Assembly (NCBI GenBank): GCA_016206085.1
Contig: JACQSF010000002.1
Span: 1-54,262 of the forward strand
Length of the DNA stretch: 54,262 bases
Direction of reading: 5' to 3'
Origin: Candidatus Uhrbacteria bacterium
GTDB lineage: Bacteria > Patescibacteriota > Patescibacteriia > UBA9934 > GWF2-40-263
Within the stretch, counting starts at the first letter, position 1. Each line of letters starts with the position of its first letter. The notes beneath the pieces are model-generated. The model saw only the letters and a list, made by a program, of their open reading frames with translations. It was not told the origin of the DNA and searched no databases. Of this stretch, positions 13,878 to 46,471 are shown in pieces. The translations under genes were made by a program, and so were the position numbers.

Positions 13878-13901
13878 TCCCCCCGCTCGCGAGCGGGGGG
13901 A
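13878..13901. mobile_element. 24-bp perfect palindrome TCCCCCC-GCTCGCGAGC-GGGGGGA
   Basis: Flanked by a TAGA direct repeat (13874-13877 and 13902-13905) that occurs once at this site in the intact tRNA. Confidence 0.85.
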
Positions 13902-13931
13902 TAGAGCGCTGTCCTCACACGACAGAGGTCA

Positions 13932-13955
13932 TCCCCCCTTTCGCGAAAGGGGGGA
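13932..13955. mobile_element. 24-bp perfect palindrome TCCCCCC-TTTCGCGAAA-GGGGGGA
   Basis: Flanked by a TCA direct repeat (13929-13931 and 13956-13958) that occurs once at this site in the intact tRNA. Confidence 0.85.
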
Positions 13956-14071
13956 TCAGAGGTTCGAGCCCTCTCACGCCCACCAAACCAGACGCTTCCG
14001 GGCGCCTGTTTTGTTTGTCACCGCCGTCCCTTGCCCCATGTCCATTTTCTTGATACGCTTGGAACATCTTT

Positions 14072-14677
14072 ATGTCATTACGATTTTCCCAGTTTGAAGA
14101 GAGATTGTATGACCGGTTTGGACCGGTGGGTGGCGCGGTTGCTTCCTTTTTGCTTGAGATCATCCAGATCATCCTTATCTCAAGTGCGATCATCATTCCG
14201 ATTCGTTACTTCTTGATTCAGCCGTTTTATGTAAAAGGGGCGAGCATGGAACCCAACTTTTACGACCAGGAGTACCTTATTATCGATGAATTGACCTACC
14301 GGTTTCGTGAACCGTATCGAGGAGAGATTGTTGTATTCAAGTATCCTCGCGATCCCAGTCAGTACTTCATCAAGCGTGTGATCGGGTTGCCAGGGGAGAC
14401 GGTCGAAGTCACGGGGGGAAATGTCATCATCTATAACACCGAGCATCCAAATGGGGTCGTGGTTGAAGAAGATTACTTAGACGAATCCACGACCGGCAAA
14501 GTCCGTGTGACACTCGGAGAAGATGAGTACTATGTCTTCGGAGATAATCGTGATTCATCACTGGACTCCCGGAGCTTCGGTTCTATTACTCGTGATGATG
14601 TGATCGGACGTGTGTGGGTCCGCGGTCTCCCCCTCTCTCGTATTACAACGTTTGACCTTCCCACTTACAATCTCTAA
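14072..14677 (+). CDS. lepB: Signal peptidase I
   Basis: TM helix, VKGASMEPN (Ser), RGEIVVF, FIKRVIGLPGE (Lys), GDNRDSSLDSR. Confidence 0.95.
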   Translation: MSLRFSQFEERLYDRFGPVGGAVASFLLEIIQIILISSAIIIPIRYFLIQPFYVKGASMEPNFYDQEYLIIDELTYRFREPYRGEIVVFKYPRDPSQYFIKRVIGLPGETVEVTGGNVIIYNTEHPNGVVVEEDYLDESTTGKVRVTLGEDEYYVFGDNRDSSLDSRSFGSITRDDVIGRVWVRGLPLSRITTFDLPTYNL

Positions 14678-14685
14678 TTGATCCT

Positions 14686-16107
14686 ATGCCATTCAAGAGA
14701 AAAGCTCTAGCCAAAGAACCGGCTCCAAAAAAGGTTTTGAAAGAGGAGCCTAAAAAAGATCTCGATGAGGAGGGTGAGGGAAAATCCGGGAAGACATTTG
14801 AACTGCTTCGTGGATTTCGAGACATCTTGCCGGAGGATCAGGGCAGATGGAACCTTGTGCGTGATACGATTCGTTCAATTGCCGAATCCTACAGCTTCGA
14901 TCGTATCGATCTGCCGATTTTGGAGCGTTCGGATTTGTTTCAGCGAACCATCGGCAAAGGAACCGACATCGTCGAAAAAGAGATGTACGTCTTTACGGAT
15001 CCATCCAATCGTTCTGTGGCGTTGCGTCCGGAGGCGACCGCCAGCGCGGCTCGTGCCTATATCAGCCACGGCATGATTGAGCGGCCACAGCCGGTGAAGA
15101 TGTGGTATTTAGGTCCCATGTTTCGTCACGACCGTCCGCAGGCCGGCCGTTATCGCCAGTTTTATCAGGCGGGATTTGAGAGTTTTGGTGTGGCCGAACC
15201 GATTGTGGATGCCCAACTCATCGTGATTGGTCATCAGATTTTTAAGTCGCTTGGTTTGGACGTAAAAGTTGAGATTAACTCGATTGGCACCTCCGAGTGT
15301 CGCGCCGCGTATCTTACTGAACTTGTCGCGTACTTCCGCCAGCATCGCAATAAACTTTCCGAGGATGACAAGCGGAGACTGCAGAAAAATCCCTTGCGCA
15401 TGTTGGACAGCAAGGAAGAGGTAACCCGTGAGCTACTGCAAAGTGCTCCTCAAATTCTTGATTGGTTGGATGAGACGAGCAAGGAGCACTTCATGAAGGT
15501 GCTTGAGTTTTTGGAAGAGGTGGAGGTGTCCTACCAACTCAATCCCTACTTGGTTCGCGGGCTTGACTACTACTCACACACCGTTTTTGAGTTTACGCTT
15601 CAAGAAGACGTCGGCGACTTGTCGCAAAGTGCGTTGGGTGGCGGCGGACGATATGACGGGCTTGTGGAGATTCTTGGTGGTCGGCCGACACCGGCGTGCG
15701 GATTTGCCCTGGGAATTGAACGCATCGTTCGTGCGTTGGAAGCAAAAGGCGTCAATCCACCCGAGCGTCCACCCGCCCTGGTATTTTTTGCTCAGTTGGG
15801 TGATGCGGCTCGTCGTGTGGGACTGAAGTTGTTTGAGGAGTTTCGACAAGCGGGTGTTTCCGTTGCAGAAGCGTTTGGGAAGAATGCCCTCAAAGGCCAA
15901 CTGGAGGCCGCCAATAGGATGGGGGTAAGACTCACGCTCATTTTAGGTCAAAAGGAAGTGCTCGATGGGACGATTATTATTCGTGACATGGAGTCAGGGG
16001 CGCAGGAGATTGTCGACGTAAAAAAGGTTGTGGGACTTGTGAAAAAGAAGCTCCTCCATGAGGAGGGGGTGGCTCTCCAGAGTCAGACGCCGGTTGTGGA
16101 AGCTTAA
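14686..16107 (+). CDS. hisS: Histidyl-tRNA synthetase
   Basis: RGFRD, LRPEATA, FRHDRPQAGRYRQFYQ, LVRGLDYY, GGGGRYDGL, GFALGIER. Confidence 0.97.
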   Translation: MPFKRKALAKEPAPKKVLKEEPKKDLDEEGEGKSGKTFELLRGFRDILPEDQGRWNLVRDTIRSIAESYSFDRIDLPILERSDLFQRTIGKGTDIVEKEMYVFTDPSNRSVALRPEATASAARAYISHGMIERPQPVKMWYLGPMFRHDRPQAGRYRQFYQAGFESFGVAEPIVDAQLIVIGHQIFKSLGLDVKVEINSIGTSECRAAYLTELVAYFRQHRNKLSEDDKRRLQKNPLRMLDSKEEVTRELLQSAPQILDWLDETSKEHFMKVLEFLEEVEVSYQLNPYLVRGLDYYSHTVFEFTLQEDVGDLSQSALGGGGRYDGLVEILGGRPTPACGFALGIERIVRALEAKGVNPPERPPALVFFAQLGDAARRVGLKLFEEFRQAGVSVAEAFGKNALKGQLEAANRMGVRLTLILGQKEVLDGTIIIRDMESGAQEIVDVKKVVGLVKKKLLHEEGVALQSQTPVVEA

Positions 16108-40391: not shown

Positions 40392-40469
40392 GGATCGGTG
40401 GTGTAGCCCGGTTAACACGTCTCCCTGTCACGGAGAAGATCGAGGGTTCGAATCCCTTCCGATCCGCCA
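40392..40469 (+). tRNA. tRNA-Asp(GTC)
   Basis: GGATCGG acceptor, TCTCC-CT-GTC-AC-GGAGA anticodon arm, GAGGG-TTCGAAT-CCCTT T arm, CCGATCCGCCA. Confidence 0.96.
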
Positions 40470-40549: not shown

Positions 40550-41221
40550 TTATCTTGAGAATATTTTTTTCAAATCACGAACTTCTTTTTCCGTGAGATG
40601 TCGAAAGTTTCCTTCTGGATAGGTTGTAGGCATTTTAAGTGTCCCGATGCGAGTACGCATGAATTCTAGCACGCGATACCCCAACTCTTCACAGGCCTGA
40701 TGGATTTCTCGCTGGTGGTTCTCCCTGACCACGATCGCACATCGGCTCGGGGAGAGGAGCCGTGTTTTCCCGATCTTCCCAAGTCGACCGACATCCACGG
40801 GACGCAGGGATGGCTCAACGTCAACGACGTATTCCTGTTCAATTTGATATTTGGGGTTGATCAGACGACTCGCCAGTGTGCCGTCATTGGTAAGTAAAAG
40901 TAAACCCGTCGTTTGCGGATTCAATCGACCAACAGGAAACACACGTTCAGGAACATCGATGAGCTCCATGACGTTTCGTTCAACCCCACTCTTGGTCGTA
41001 TACCCGATGGGCTTGTGCAGGAGGATGTATAGATTTTTTTTGTGGACTTTTTTATCACGTCCTAGCACGCGCACGTCATCATTTTCGTTCACCACATCAC
41101 CAAGATGTGCCTGTGCTTCGTTAATAAAAACCTTCCCAGCCTTTATCAATCGATCCGCTTCTCGGCGAGAGCAGTAACCATTTTCGGCCAGGTATTTATT
41201 GATGCGTGTGGTTTGAGACAT
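40550..41221 (-). CDS. RsuA/RluB/RluF-family pseudouridine synthase homologue with catalytic Asp replaced by Asn
   Basis: S4 domain RINKYLAENGYCSRREAD, LLHKPIGY, FPVGRLNPQTTGLLLLTNDG. Confidence 0.9.
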   Translation of the reverse strand: MSQTTRINKYLAENGYCSRREADRLIKAGKVFINEAQAHLGDVVNENDDVRVLGRDKKVHKKNLYILLHKPIGYTTKSGVERNVMELIDVPERVFPVGRLNPQTTGLLLLTNDGTLASRLINPKYQIEQEYVVDVEPSLRPVDVGRLGKIGKTRLLSPSRCAIVVRENHQREIHQACEELGYRVLEFMRTRIGTLKMPTTYPEGNFRHLTEKEVRDLKKIFSR

Positions 41222-41310
41222 ATCGGACGAATTGTAGCACACATGAAAATCTATCTCCGTGAACTTCTTGTGATATCATAGGTGCCTATTCATAGTGAGC
41301 CTGTCGAACT

Positions 41311-41661
41311 ATGCCAAGCCTTGAAGACATTTATCATCGCCTTGAGAAGAATAAAAAACGTCGGAAAGAGATAAACAAGATGCTCAAAGATGAGCTGTCA
41401 CACGCTTCTCGCTATCAGGAAATCGTCGACGAGATCAAGACCCTGCGCGAGGAAAAGAAGGGGATCGAGCAGGATGTGCGAGCCGGGAACTCAGACATTG
41501 CCGAGCTTGAGGAGTTGAAGGTGGAGATCGAAACAGATCAAGAACTTCTCGCCGATCAAGCACTGAACATGTACGTCAAAAACGAAACGGTTGAGATTAA
41601 AGATGAATACGACCAGACTTGGTACCCTGTGTTCAAGGTGAATTTTAAGAAGTCAAATTAA
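41311..41661 (+). CDS. Hypothetical coiled-coil protein
   Basis: 116-aa charged helical ORF filling the intergenic space. Confidence 0.75.
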   Translation: MPSLEDIYHRLEKNKKRRKEINKMLKDELSHASRYQEIVDEIKTLREEKKGIEQDVRAGNSDIAELEELKVEIETDQELLADQALNMYVKNETVEIKDEYDQTWYPVFKVNFKKSN

Positions 41662-45973: not shown

Positions 45974-46080
45974 GCCATCCGTAGCTCCAGCACAGGACAT
46001 AGTTATACGCCCTTCTTCGCTAAAGCTACGGAGGGCATCCTTCGCCCCAGCAACAAAAAATACTGCTGGAGCGAAGGATG
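45974..46080. repeat. Cluster of CCGTAGCT/CCTTCGC palindromic repeats between the tmRNA 3' end and GIY-YIG
   Basis: GCCATCCGTAGCT...AGCTACGGAGGGC and CATCCTTCGC...GCGAAGGATG hairpins; the latter overlaps the tmRNA CCA. Confidence 0.75.
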
Positions 46081-46471
46081 GTGGAGCTGGGGAGAATCGA
46101 ACTCCCGTGCGGTAAGGTTTCTCATCTTGATGTTTCCAAGCTCATTCACGCCTCATACCTCGTCACGCTCAAGGCGTGAAGCAATACATGACGAGGAACC
46201 GATCGCAACTCTTACATGTGAGAGATCGGTGACCTCACACGCGAAGCTCGATAATATAACACCCGACTGCTGGCTATCGAGCATGACCAGCGCGGATGGT
46301 TCTGACGCTTACGCGAGAACAGGGGCGAATGAAGGAACGCGCAAAGCGTTCTTGATCATTGCCATGACGTTGTTTGCAGTTGTCGTCTTGCATGGGGAAT
46401 ATTTGCGTGCGACCCATGCTCGCACGACTTGATCAAGATGGAAGAGACTCCCGTCGAAGCCTGTCAGCCCC
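46079..46471 (-). ncRNA. ssrA: tmRNA (one-piece)
   Basis: 5' GGGGCTGACAGGCTTCGAC, 3' GGGAGTTCGATTCTCCCCAGCTCCACCA (G:U Ala identity); tag ORF ANNVMAMIKNALRVPSFAPVLA*; smpB about 2 kb away. Confidence 0.95.

What the first reader, a model, noticed from the sequence alone, without database searches (positions are those of the whole stretch)
40550..41221. Pseudouridine synthase homologue with the catalytic Asp replaced by Asn
Seen: motif II reads GRLN (codon AAT at 40919-40921) instead of GRLD, and the EGRNRQIRRM-type motif has decayed to RENHQREIHQA. The S4 domain and the reading frame are intact. Established: this Asp is essential for catalysis in pseudouridine synthases. Inference: a pseudo-enzyme retained as an rRNA chaperone or assembly factor.
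Basis: partly seen in the sequence, partly recalled or inferred. Interest (0 to 1): 0.6.

Follow-up and report, generated by a model that had tools for sequence, protein, structure and literature searches.

The report
Dead rRNA pseudouridine synthase paralogue, conserved
This ultra-small groundwater bacterium (Candidatus Uhrbacteria) carries an intact, strongly conserved copy of an rRNA pseudouridine synthase that has lost its catalytic aspartate and the rest of its active-site lining; it most likely now only binds RNA, and it is a natural case for asking whether such enzymes matter for their chemistry or for their grip on RNA.

Summary
The minus-strand ORF 40550-41221 encodes a 223-aa S4 + RsuA/RluF-type pseudouridine synthase. 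Motif II reads GRLN (AAT, 40919-40921) and motif III is decayed.

It is neither a sequencing error nor decay:
- All 24 closest homologues (65-82% identity) carry N, S or H at this site.
- Pairs within this Asp-less clade give dN/dS of about 0.04-0.12.
- dN is only 1.1-1.3 times that of the canonical paralogue in the same genomes.
- Relaxed sites lie in motif II, the HEKEY block and motif III. The S4 domain, the base-flipping Arg, the active-site Tyr and the fold (AF2 pLDDT 92; best match the RluF-RNA complex) are kept.

The gene (paralogue A) lies in one shared gene neighbourhood across the family. Asp was lost at least 4 times. All 13 Asp-less copies in genomes that could be scored coexist with a canonical paralogue B, and 11 of 13 A-only genomes keep a canonical A. 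Paralogue B was not found in this 83%-complete assembly, whose B neighbourhood is also missing.

My reading is a non-catalytic RNA-binding paralogue, probably acting on 23S rRNA or pre-50S particles. That function is inferred. Human RPUSD3 and TruB D48N are precedents. Earlier notes of this scan report dead RsuA-type proteins on other DNA.

The parts
40550..41221 (-). Gene for the 223-aa Asp-less RluF-like protein (paralogue A), stop codon included
   Evidence: AF2 model pLDDT 92. Best fold match is RluF-RNA 3dh3, E 2.9e-23.
41072..41206 (-). S4 RNA-binding domain (residues 6-50), invariant between Asp-less and canonical relatives
   Evidence: Pfam PF01479, 32.4 bits. 25 of the 58 shared invariant positions lie in residues 6-55.
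40883..40930 (-). Motif II, GRLNPQTTGLLLLTND (residues 98-113). The base-flipping Arg99 is kept and the catalytic Asp is replaced by Asn101 (AAT, 40919-40921)
   Evidence: RluB R108 and D110 are the equivalent residues (PMC3919597).
40826..40846 (-). QIEQEYV block (residues 126-132). The active-site Tyr131 is kept, and the His-Glu-Lys of the canonical HEKEY has changed to I-E-Q
   Evidence: H127 relaxed, K129Q switch, Y131 shared.
40772..40777 (-). Junction (K149|I150) of an 11-residue deletion that removes the GVxLxDGxTLPAKV hairpin of canonical relatives
   Evidence: Alignment. Asp-less clade members average 225 aa against 245 aa for canonical ones.
40694..40726 (-). Decayed motif III, RENHQREIHQA (residues 166-176). 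The central Arg171 is kept and the flanking R/N/Q/R/R/M are lost
41231..41239 (-). TGCTACAAT, an extended -10-like element 9 nt upstream of the ATG. It implies a leaderless or nearly leaderless mRNA (inference)
   Evidence: the same element sits within about 20 nt upstream of the start (6-18 nt as printed, the longer distances where my called ATG is probably too far downstream) in Asp-less and canonical orthologues of 9 of 14 loci. The consensus scan found no full -35/-10 promoter.
40392..40469 (+). Convergent tRNA-Asp(GTC), a conserved neighbour used as a synteny marker and not a functional part
   Evidence: The same tRNA lies in 12 of 26 relative loci of about 2-7 kb, next to the gene where checked.

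Best explanation
The gene encodes a catalytically dead descendant of an RluF/RluB-type 23S rRNA pseudouridine synthase, and selection maintains it as a non-catalytic RNA-binding protein. Shown here: the catalytic Asp and most residues that line the uridine pocket are gone; the reading frame, the S4 domain, the fold, the base-flipping Arg and the active-site Tyr are kept under strong purifying selection; and the loss happened in place, several times, in lineages that also carry a canonical paralogue. Inferred: the protein still docks on an RNA stem-loop through S4 and the motif II groove. The most economical target is the ancestral one, the 23S stem-loop that carries U2604/U2605 next to the peptidyl-transferase centre, and the protein may still flip a base out with Arg99. 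It would hold or remodel that RNA during 50S assembly without isomerising it, while paralogue B supplies the pseudouridine. On this reading the two jobs of a pseudouridine synthase, chemistry and RNA chaperoning, have been divided between two paralogues.
For: (1) Dead site. N101 replaces the Asp. In TruB the same D-to-N change (D48N) is catalytically inactive yet binds substrate tRNA with a Kd of 1.4 uM (PMC7430675). Mutating this Asp abolishes activity in TruA, TruB, RluA and RsuA (PMC3919597). (2) Retention. The 24 closest homologues all have N/S/H. Among 21 pairs within the Asp-less clade, pN is 0.06-0.20 against pS 0.50-0.80, Fisher p is at most 6e-24, and omega is 0.04-0.12; the least saturated pairs give dN/dS of 0.064/0.83 and 0.124/1.0. 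dN of A is only 1.1-1.3 times that of canonical B for the same genome pairs. (3) Site pattern. The 13 positions that are invariant in canonical relatives but relaxed here include D101, V102, E126, H127, R169, Q172-M176. The 58 shared invariant positions include the S4 core, R99, Y131, GLLLLTNDG and RTR. (4) Fold. AF2 gives pLDDT 92 and pTM 0.73. Foldseek's top hit is RluF-RNA 3dh3 (E 2.9e-23), and the catalytic domain matches 2gml with TM 0.81. (5) In-place origin. The context IF3-L35-L20 ... orf116 ... A ... tRNA-Asp is shared by canonical and degenerate A copies in several genera. (6) Recurrence. At least 4 losses of Asp are forced by well-supported branches. An independent clade (genus g4, GEMS/GNMN) has omega 0.05-0.085 for its less saturated pairs (0.012-0.085 overall). 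(7) Pairing with B. 13 of 13 Asp-less A copies in scorable genomes coexist with B. 28 of 30 A+B genomes have a degenerate A, and 11 of 13 A-only genomes have a canonical A. (8) The putative target GAGACAGUUCGGUC is unchanged in 23S of G002, G004, G007 and G010. (9) Precedent. The PDB holds a cryo-EM particle titled 'with RluB bound' (9cl9). Inactive RlmB and RlmL variants still promote 50S assembly (PMC11194073).
Against: No experiment or expression data exist for this protein. RNA binding, the target and ribosome association are all inferred. The hairpin deletion, the loss of the basic C-terminal tail, 7 clade-specific switched residues and 18 newly constrained ones could mean a changed RNA partner rather than the ancestral one. 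In the E. coli delta-10 strain, re-expressing RluB or RluF had no significant growth effect, and RluC D144A did not help assembly (PMC11194073), so a chaperone role is not general for this family. 21 of 72 family genomes had no match to this protein, so the whole function looks dispensable in this family. The link with paralogue B rests on few independent events (3-5 contrasts; the sign test has no power), and B was not found in this genome itself. dS is saturated for most pairs, so omega values are approximate.
Confidence: 0.6

Rival explanations
1. It was neofunctionalised to a different partner. The dead scaffold binds another RNA (tRNA, mRNA leader, another rRNA site), or it acts as a competitor or regulator that shields the target stem-loop from paralogue B.
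For: 7 positions switched to a new invariant residue (H69, K77, T104, N122, Q129, E136, Q170) and 18 positions became newly constrained. There is an 11-residue hairpin deletion and the basic C-tail is lost. The protein scores below the TIGR00093 subfamily cut-off (76.1 against 109.3), whereas canonical A and B score 158-164.
Against: The S4 domain and the motif II groove elements that contact the substrate stem-loop in RluB and RluF are unchanged. Other independent Asp-less lineages (g4) keep the hairpin and the tail, so these changes are not required for the non-catalytic state. No candidate alternative RNA was identified.
Confidence: 0.25
2. It is a redundant duplicate in slow decay: a gene made superfluous by paralogue B that has not yet been disrupted.
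For: Degeneration is seen almost only where B is present. A evolves somewhat faster than B and much faster than its neighbours: 71-74% identity within the genus, against 88-92% for L20 and orf116. Many family members have lost both genes.
Against: Frames are intact in every one of more than 25 Asp-less cluster representatives and in 4 or more independent lineages. Omega is 0.04-0.12 over dS above 0.8. Relaxation is confined to the pocket, and 58 positions stay invariant. A conserved promoter-like element is present.
Confidence: 0.07
3. It is still an active pseudouridine synthase (or another RNA-modifying enzyme) that uses a different nucleophile or a trans-acting residue.
For: The base-flipping Arg99, Tyr131 and the central Arg171 of motif III are kept. 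The site is restricted to N/S/H rather than varying freely.
Against: The residue varies among N, S and H between close relatives, and among E, A and G in other lineages, which does not fit one conserved alternative nucleophile. Every tested Asp substitution in this superfamily abolishes activity (PMC3919597; PMC7430675). The pocket walls (V102, H127, R169, Q172-M176) are relaxed together with the Asp.
Confidence: 0.05
4. It is a sequencing or assembly error at one base (GAT read as AAT).
For: A single transition separates AAT from GAT, and reads could not be inspected.
Against: Independent assemblies share AAT, AAC or AGT/AGC at this codon. Eleven further linked changes (motif III, HEKEY, the deletion) are shared by the clade.
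Confidence: 0.01

Closest known systems
E. coli RluF (23S pseudouridine-2604 synthase; PDB 3dh3, 2gml) and RluB (pseudouridine-2605; 4lgt, 4lab, 9cl9), RsuA family
   Same: The same two-domain architecture (S4 + PseudoU_synth_2). It is the best sequence hit (E 1.5e-35) and the best fold hit. The base-flipping Arg, the active-site Tyr, the GLLLLTNDG strand and the RTR motif are conserved.
   Different: The catalytic Asp is Asn, motif III is decayed, the HEKEY His is lost, an 11-residue hairpin is deleted, and there is no C-terminal basic tail. It scores 138 bits against the RluF equivalog cut-off of 318, and 76 against the TIGR00093 cut-off of 109.
Human mitochondrial RPUSD3 (RluA family)
   Same: A pseudouridine synthase homologue without the conserved catalytic Asp. 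It is regarded as a pseudoenzyme that acts in mitochondrial 16S rRNA/mitoribosome function next to active paralogues (PMC12710931).
   Different: It belongs to a different family (RluA, not RsuA) and is eukaryotic and organellar. The present case is bacterial, and the loss is recurrent and traceable within one bacterial family.
Trypanosoma brucei mt-LAF3 (RluA-type mitoribosome assembly factor)
   Same: A pseudouridine synthase fold that serves as an rRNA-binding assembly factor. Catalysis is dispensable: D211A fully complements (bioRxiv 10.1101/2023.02.23.529727).
   Different: mt-LAF3 keeps the Asp and has lost the flipping Arg (HNLD). The window protein does the reverse: Arg kept, Asp lost.
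E. coli TruB D48N and the TruB tRNA-chaperone activity
   Same: The identical Asp-to-Asn substitution gives an inactive protein that still binds substrate RNA (Kd 1.4 uM). TruB folds tRNA independently of modification (PMC7430675, citing Keffer-Wilkes 2016).
   Different: That is a laboratory mutant of a tRNA enzyme of the TruB family, whereas here the substitution is natural and fixed.
Catalysis-independent roles of rRNA modification enzymes in 50S assembly (RlmB E198A, RlmL N309A in the E. coli delta-10 strain)
   Same: Inactive variants still promote large-subunit assembly (PMC11194073).
   Different: Those are methyltransferases. In the same study RluB and RluF had no significant growth effect and RluC D144A did not rescue.

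Membership tests
RsuA family of pseudouridine synthases (S4 + PseudoU_synth_2) | Pfam PF01479 (S4) and PF00849 domains above their gathering scores | tested here: met
   32.4 against 22.8 bits and 45.1 against 26.8 bits. The PF00849 match covers only profile positions 2-84 of 152.
RsuA family of pseudouridine synthases (S4 + PseudoU_synth_2) | Pseudouridine synthase alpha/beta fold with a central bifurcated sheet | tested here: met
   AF2 pLDDT 92. Foldseek gives 3dh3 at E 2.9e-23, and 2gml at TM 0.81 with rmsd 2.9.
RsuA family of pseudouridine synthases (S4 + PseudoU_synth_2) | Universally conserved catalytic Asp in motif II (GRLD) | tested here: not met
   Asn101, codon AAT at 40919-40921. 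The site is N, S or H in the 24 closest homologues.
RsuA family of pseudouridine synthases (S4 + PseudoU_synth_2) | Base-flipping Arg two residues before the Asp (RluB R108) | tested here: met
   R99 is invariant in the clade. Its role is taken from PMC3919597.
RsuA family of pseudouridine synthases (S4 + PseudoU_synth_2) | Active-site Tyr (RluB Y140, EKEY) | tested here: met
   Y131 is invariant, but the preceding His and Lys have changed.
RsuA family of pseudouridine synthases (S4 + PseudoU_synth_2) | Motif III, EG(R/K)N(R/K)Q(I/V)RRM | tested here: not met
   It reads ENHQREIHQA. Only the central Arg171 and Ile173 match, and 6 positions are relaxed in the clade.
NCBIfam TIGR00093 (pseudouridine synthase subfamily) and NF007784 (RluF equivalog) | Score above the curated cut-off | tested here: not met
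   76.1 against 109.3, and 138.3 against 318. Canonical A and B relatives score 158-164 on TIGR00093 but also fall below the RluF equivalog cut-off.
RluF or RluB function (pseudouridine 2604/2605 in 23S rRNA) | Formation of pseudouridine at the target uridine | not testable with these tools
   The target sequence is intact in 23S of four relatives. 23S is not assembled in this genome.
Pseudoenzyme (inactive homologue retained by selection) | Clear homology to an enzyme family, with the essential catalytic residue missing | tested here: met
Pseudoenzyme (inactive homologue retained by selection) | Purifying selection after the loss | tested here: met
   Omega is 0.04-0.12 among Asp-less sequences, with Fisher p at most 6e-24. 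dS is near saturation for many pairs.
Pseudoenzyme (inactive homologue retained by selection) | Experimentally shown lack of activity, plus a non-catalytic function | not testable with these tools
   Supported by inference only, from D-to-N mutants of other family members.

The most novel reading that the evidence does not exclude
Uhrbacteria repeatedly split the two roles of an rRNA pseudouridine synthase between paralogues. Whenever a second canonical copy (B) is present, the copy at the conserved locus (A) loses its chemistry by different routes (GRLN/S/H, GLLE, GRLE, GEMS, GQHA). It is nevertheless kept under nearly the same constraint as the active enzyme, because its RNA-holding (chaperone or assembly) role is itself under selection. 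That would be natural genetic evidence, in bacteria, for the long-debated 'second function' of rRNA modification enzymes.
Probability: 0.35. Interest if true: 0.7.

Novelty: new variant of a known kind. Interest (0 to 1): 0.52.

Why it matters
A long-standing question about rRNA modification is whether cells keep these enzymes for the modified nucleotide or for a chaperone role of the protein. So far it has been addressed mostly with engineered point mutants, such as RluD, TruB D48N and RlmB E198A. Here the equivalent of the D-to-N mutant occurs naturally. It has been fixed in a tiny genome that has shed many other genes, and it has been kept under strong purifying selection. It recurs in sister lineages by different substitutions, usually beside an intact paralogue.

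If the protein binds pre-50S RNA, it shows that the non-catalytic role alone can be worth a gene in a roughly 1-Mb genome. It also supplies matched active and inactive pairs for biochemistry. There is a practical consequence as well: public annotations label these proteins 'rRNA pseudouridine synthase' or '23S rRNA pseudouridine2604 synthase', which overstates what they can do. In the open literature I searched, Asp-less pseudouridine synthase pseudoenzymes are described for mitochondria (RPUSD3) and not for the bacterial RsuA family.

Tried and rejected
DNA of the closest homologues (80-91% identity pairs, P0002-P0005) could not be fetched, so dN/dS had to use more diverged pairs with dS of about 0.8 to above 2.
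- The YN00 estimator failed on saturated pairs. I used NG86 counts with Fisher tests, and the GY94 ML estimate.
- 23S rRNA is not in this assembly. The target site could only be checked in relatives.
- Paralogue B was not found in G000. The synteny check shows that the whole B neighbourhood of four sister genomes has no orthologues in this 83%-complete assembly. Absence of B is therefore not shown, and I rejected the reading that this genome has only the dead copy.
- The phylogenetically independent contrast test of 'B present versus A degenerate' has only 3-5 contrasts and no power. The raw 28/2 against 2/11 table must not be read as a statistical proof.
- The sigma-70 consensus scan found no promoter. 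The conserved extended -10 was found by aligning upstream regions.
- Model coordinates are not exposed, so switched or relaxed residues could not be mapped onto the RNA interface of 3dh3.
- TruB (PF01509) and TruA (PF01416) searches of the genome were negative. The only other PF00849 protein is an RluD-like gene with an intact HRLD, so no other RsuA-type enzyme hides in the assembled part.
- Literature searches for a described bacterial Asp-less RsuA-family protein found none. The library is not exhaustive.

Full report
**1. What is in the sequence**

The minus strand of 40550-41221 carries an uninterrupted ORF of 223 codons.
- Pfam finds an N-terminal S4 domain (residues 6-50) and a PseudoU_synth_2 domain.
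- NCBIfam ranks RluF first (138 bits), then RsuA and RluB. All are far below their equivalog cut-offs, and the protein also falls below the generic TIGR00093 subfamily cut-off (76 against 109 bits).
- The best solved relative is E. coli RluF in complex with RNA (3dh3, E 1.5e-35). In that alignment the GRLD aspartate of RluF faces Asn101 of the query.
- Motif III reads RENHQREIHQA, where relatives read EGRNRQIRRM.

Two things can be added. The His and Lys of the canonical HEKEY block are replaced (IEQEY). An 11-residue hairpin (GVxLxDGxTLPAKV) and the basic C-terminal tail are missing.

**2. Organism and gene inventory**

Homologues are named Candidatus Uhrbacteria or Patescibacteria. The assembly has 877 kb in 34 contigs and is 83% complete.
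- It holds only one other PF00849 gene, an RluD-like protein with an intact HRLD.
- No TruB or TruA was detected.
- 23S rRNA is not assembled.

**3. Not an error, not an orphan**

Of the 120 best database hits, the 24 closest (65-82% identity) all have N, S or H at the Asp position, and all have a decayed motif III. Most hits at 57% identity or less have GRLD and a perfect EGRNRQIRRM. The codons are:
- AAT in this genome and in genome G004.
- AAC in one metagenome contig.
- AGT or AGC in the Ser forms.
- GAT or GAC in canonical relatives.

Among 150 diverse representatives of 50%-identity clusters, 144 keep Asp. The loss is therefore rare in the family as a whole and concentrated in this lineage.

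**4. Two paralogues**

I searched 60 relatives and then all 72 genomes of the family and built trees. Two clades appear.
- Paralogue A is the window type. It is found only in this family (SH-aLRT 96-97).
- Paralogue B is canonical (GRLDVASSGL, EGRNRQIRRM) and about 40% identical to the window protein.
- Both score best as RluF-like.
- A sits in one shared gene neighbourhood across genera, whether it is canonical or degenerate: IF3-L35-L20 ... a conserved 116-aa gene ... A ... tRNA-Asp .... The dead versions therefore arose in place from an active enzyme.
- The tree needs 5 changes of the Asp state, and well-supported branches force at least 4. The routes differ between lineages: GRLN/S/H and GLLE in this genus, GRLE in g6, GEMS/GNMN in g4, and GRLE/GQHA in g23/g16. 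Further lineages keep Asp but lose the flipping Arg or motif III (GHLD, GQLD, GRFD).

**5. Selection**

Within the Asp-less clade:
- All 21 pairs show pN 0.06-0.20 against pS 0.50-0.80 (Fisher p at most 6e-24).
- ML omega is 0.02-0.12 across the pairs, and 0.04-0.12 for the pairs that are not extremely saturated.
- The least saturated pairs give dN/dS of 0.064/0.83 and 0.124/1.0.
- The independent g4 clade gives 0.05-0.085 for its less saturated pairs, similar to canonical B in the same genus.
- For the same genome pairs, dN of A is only 1.1-1.3 times dN of B.

dS is near saturation for many pairs, so the numbers are approximate. The direction is not in doubt. Simple decay is rejected.

**6. 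Where constraint was lost and where it was kept**

Thirteen positions are invariant in 51 canonical relatives but relaxed in the 25 Asp-less sequences. They are D101, V102, N118, E126, H127, P150, R169, Q172, I173, R174, R175, M176 and L187. Most lie in motif II, the HEKEY block and motif III, the elements that form the active-site cleft.

Fifty-eight positions stay invariant in both groups:
- the S4 core
- R99, the Arg that displaces the target base in RluB and RluF (R108A leaves 0.6% activity)
- Y131 (RluB Y140)
- GLLLLTNDG
- RTR (PMC3919597)

Seven positions switched to a new invariant residue, and 18 became newly constrained. The AF2 model is confident (pLDDT 92, pTM 0.73). It matches RluF-RNA best (E 2.9e-23), and its catalytic domain superposes on 2gml with TM 0.81.

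**7. Relation to paralogue B**

- All 13 Asp-less A copies from genomes that could be scored coexist with B.
- 28 of 30 A+B genomes have a degenerate A (motif II or III).
- 11 of 13 A-only genomes have a canonical A. The two exceptions are G016, where the central Arg is Gln, and G095.

The pattern is striking, but relatives are not independent. Only 3-5 independent contrasts exist, and the sign test has no power. I treat the pattern as suggestive.

In this genome B was not found. However, the genes flanking B in four sister genomes also lack orthologues here. That region is simply unassembled, and B's absence is not shown. Twenty-one of the 72 family genomes gave no match to this protein (E <= 1e-10), so the whole function is dispensable in some lineages.

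**8. Mechanism**

What is shown is a dead active site in a conserved RNA-binding scaffold that is under purifying selection. What is inferred is that the protein still binds an RNA stem-loop through S4 and the motif II groove, possibly flipping a base with R99, and that it does so without catalysis.

The ancestral target sequence GAGACAGUUCGGUC (U2604/U2605 by my own numbering of E. coli 23S) is unchanged in four relatives. Several precedents make the reading plausible:
- TruB D48N is inactive but binds tRNA (Kd 1.4 uM), and TruB is a modification-independent tRNA chaperone (PMC7430675).
- Inactive RlmB and RlmL variants promote 50S assembly (PMC11194073).
- The PDB holds a cryo-EM particle titled 'with RluB bound' (9cl9).
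- Human RPUSD3 lacks the Asp and is regarded as a pseudoenzyme acting on mitochondrial rRNA (PMC12710931).
- T. brucei mt-LAF3 works without its Asp.

Against a generic chaperone role: RluB and RluF had no significant growth effect in the E. coli delta-10 strain, and RluC D144A did not rescue. The deletion and the switched residues leave room for a changed RNA partner.

**9. Expression hint**

An extended -10-like TGCTACAAT lies 9 nt upstream of the ATG. A similar element lies within about 20 nt upstream of the start in 9 of 14 orthologous loci, both dead and canonical, and there is no Shine-Dalgarno sequence. This suggests a leaderless transcript and a maintained promoter. It is an inference, and the consensus scan found no full promoter.

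**10. Novelty**

The concept of a pseudo-pseudouridine synthase is known from mitochondria. I found no description of an Asp-less RsuA-family protein in bacteria in the searchable literature. A recent survey of ribosome biogenesis factors in CPR bacteria does not mention one (PMC12641178).

Earlier notes of this scan report dead RsuA/RluB-type proteins on other DNA: Kapaibacteria, another bacterium with an RGG tail, and a trypanosome mitochondrial protein. These are unchecked AI notes and I did not test them. What is added here is the family-scale picture: origin in place, recurrent loss by different routes, coexistence with a canonical paralogue, and near-equal constraint on the dead and the live copy. 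I class it as a new variant of a known kind.

Noticed in passing
window 41222-41242 (-), and upstream regions of L004, L007, L008, L015, L066, L067 and L069: A conserved extended -10-like TGCTACAAT lies 9 nt before the start codon here, and a similar element within about 20 nt in 9 of 14 orthologous loci, with no Shine-Dalgarno sequence. The gene family appears to be expressed from leaderless or nearly leaderless mRNAs.
   Followed up: partly
whole genome G000 (34 contigs, 83% complete): No TruB (PF01509) or TruA (PF01416) homologue was detected. The only pseudouridine synthase with an intact catalytic motif in the assembled part is an RluD-like gene on contig C9 (L001, 1309-2451, minus strand). 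It has a roughly 75-residue N-terminal extension if the TTG start is real.
   Followed up: partly
family-wide search: 21 of 72 genomes of the same family, many of them 95-100% complete, had no match to this RsuA-type protein (E <= 1e-10). Both paralogues are dispensable in some lineages.
   Followed up: no
window 41311-41661 (+): A 116-aa Lys/Glu-rich, probably coiled-coil protein is transcribed divergently from the dead synthase gene. It is 90-92% identical in same-genus genomes, far more conserved than the synthase (71-74%), and it keeps this position across genera. Its function is unknown.
   Followed up: no
P0028, P0096, P0111, P0118: A 10-11-residue deletion of the same GVxLxDGxTLPAKV hairpin appears in other degenerate lineages (g6 GRLE, g16 GQHA) that do not group with the window clade in the tree. 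This is either a recurrent deletion or unresolved phylogeny.
   Followed up: no
L118-L121 (23S rRNA of G002, G004, G007, G010): The stretch next to the peptidyl-transferase centre reads GGGUUCAG where E. coli has GGGUUUAG (U2586C by my own numbering). The U2604/U2605 stem is otherwise identical.
   Followed up: no
window 13890-14694 (+): ARAGORN reports a second, permuted 'tmRNA*' of 805 nt with an implausible hydrophobic tag, in addition to the normal tmRNA at 46079-46471. It is probably a false call in the region that other notes describe as a tRNA with an inserted nuclease gene.
   Followed up: no
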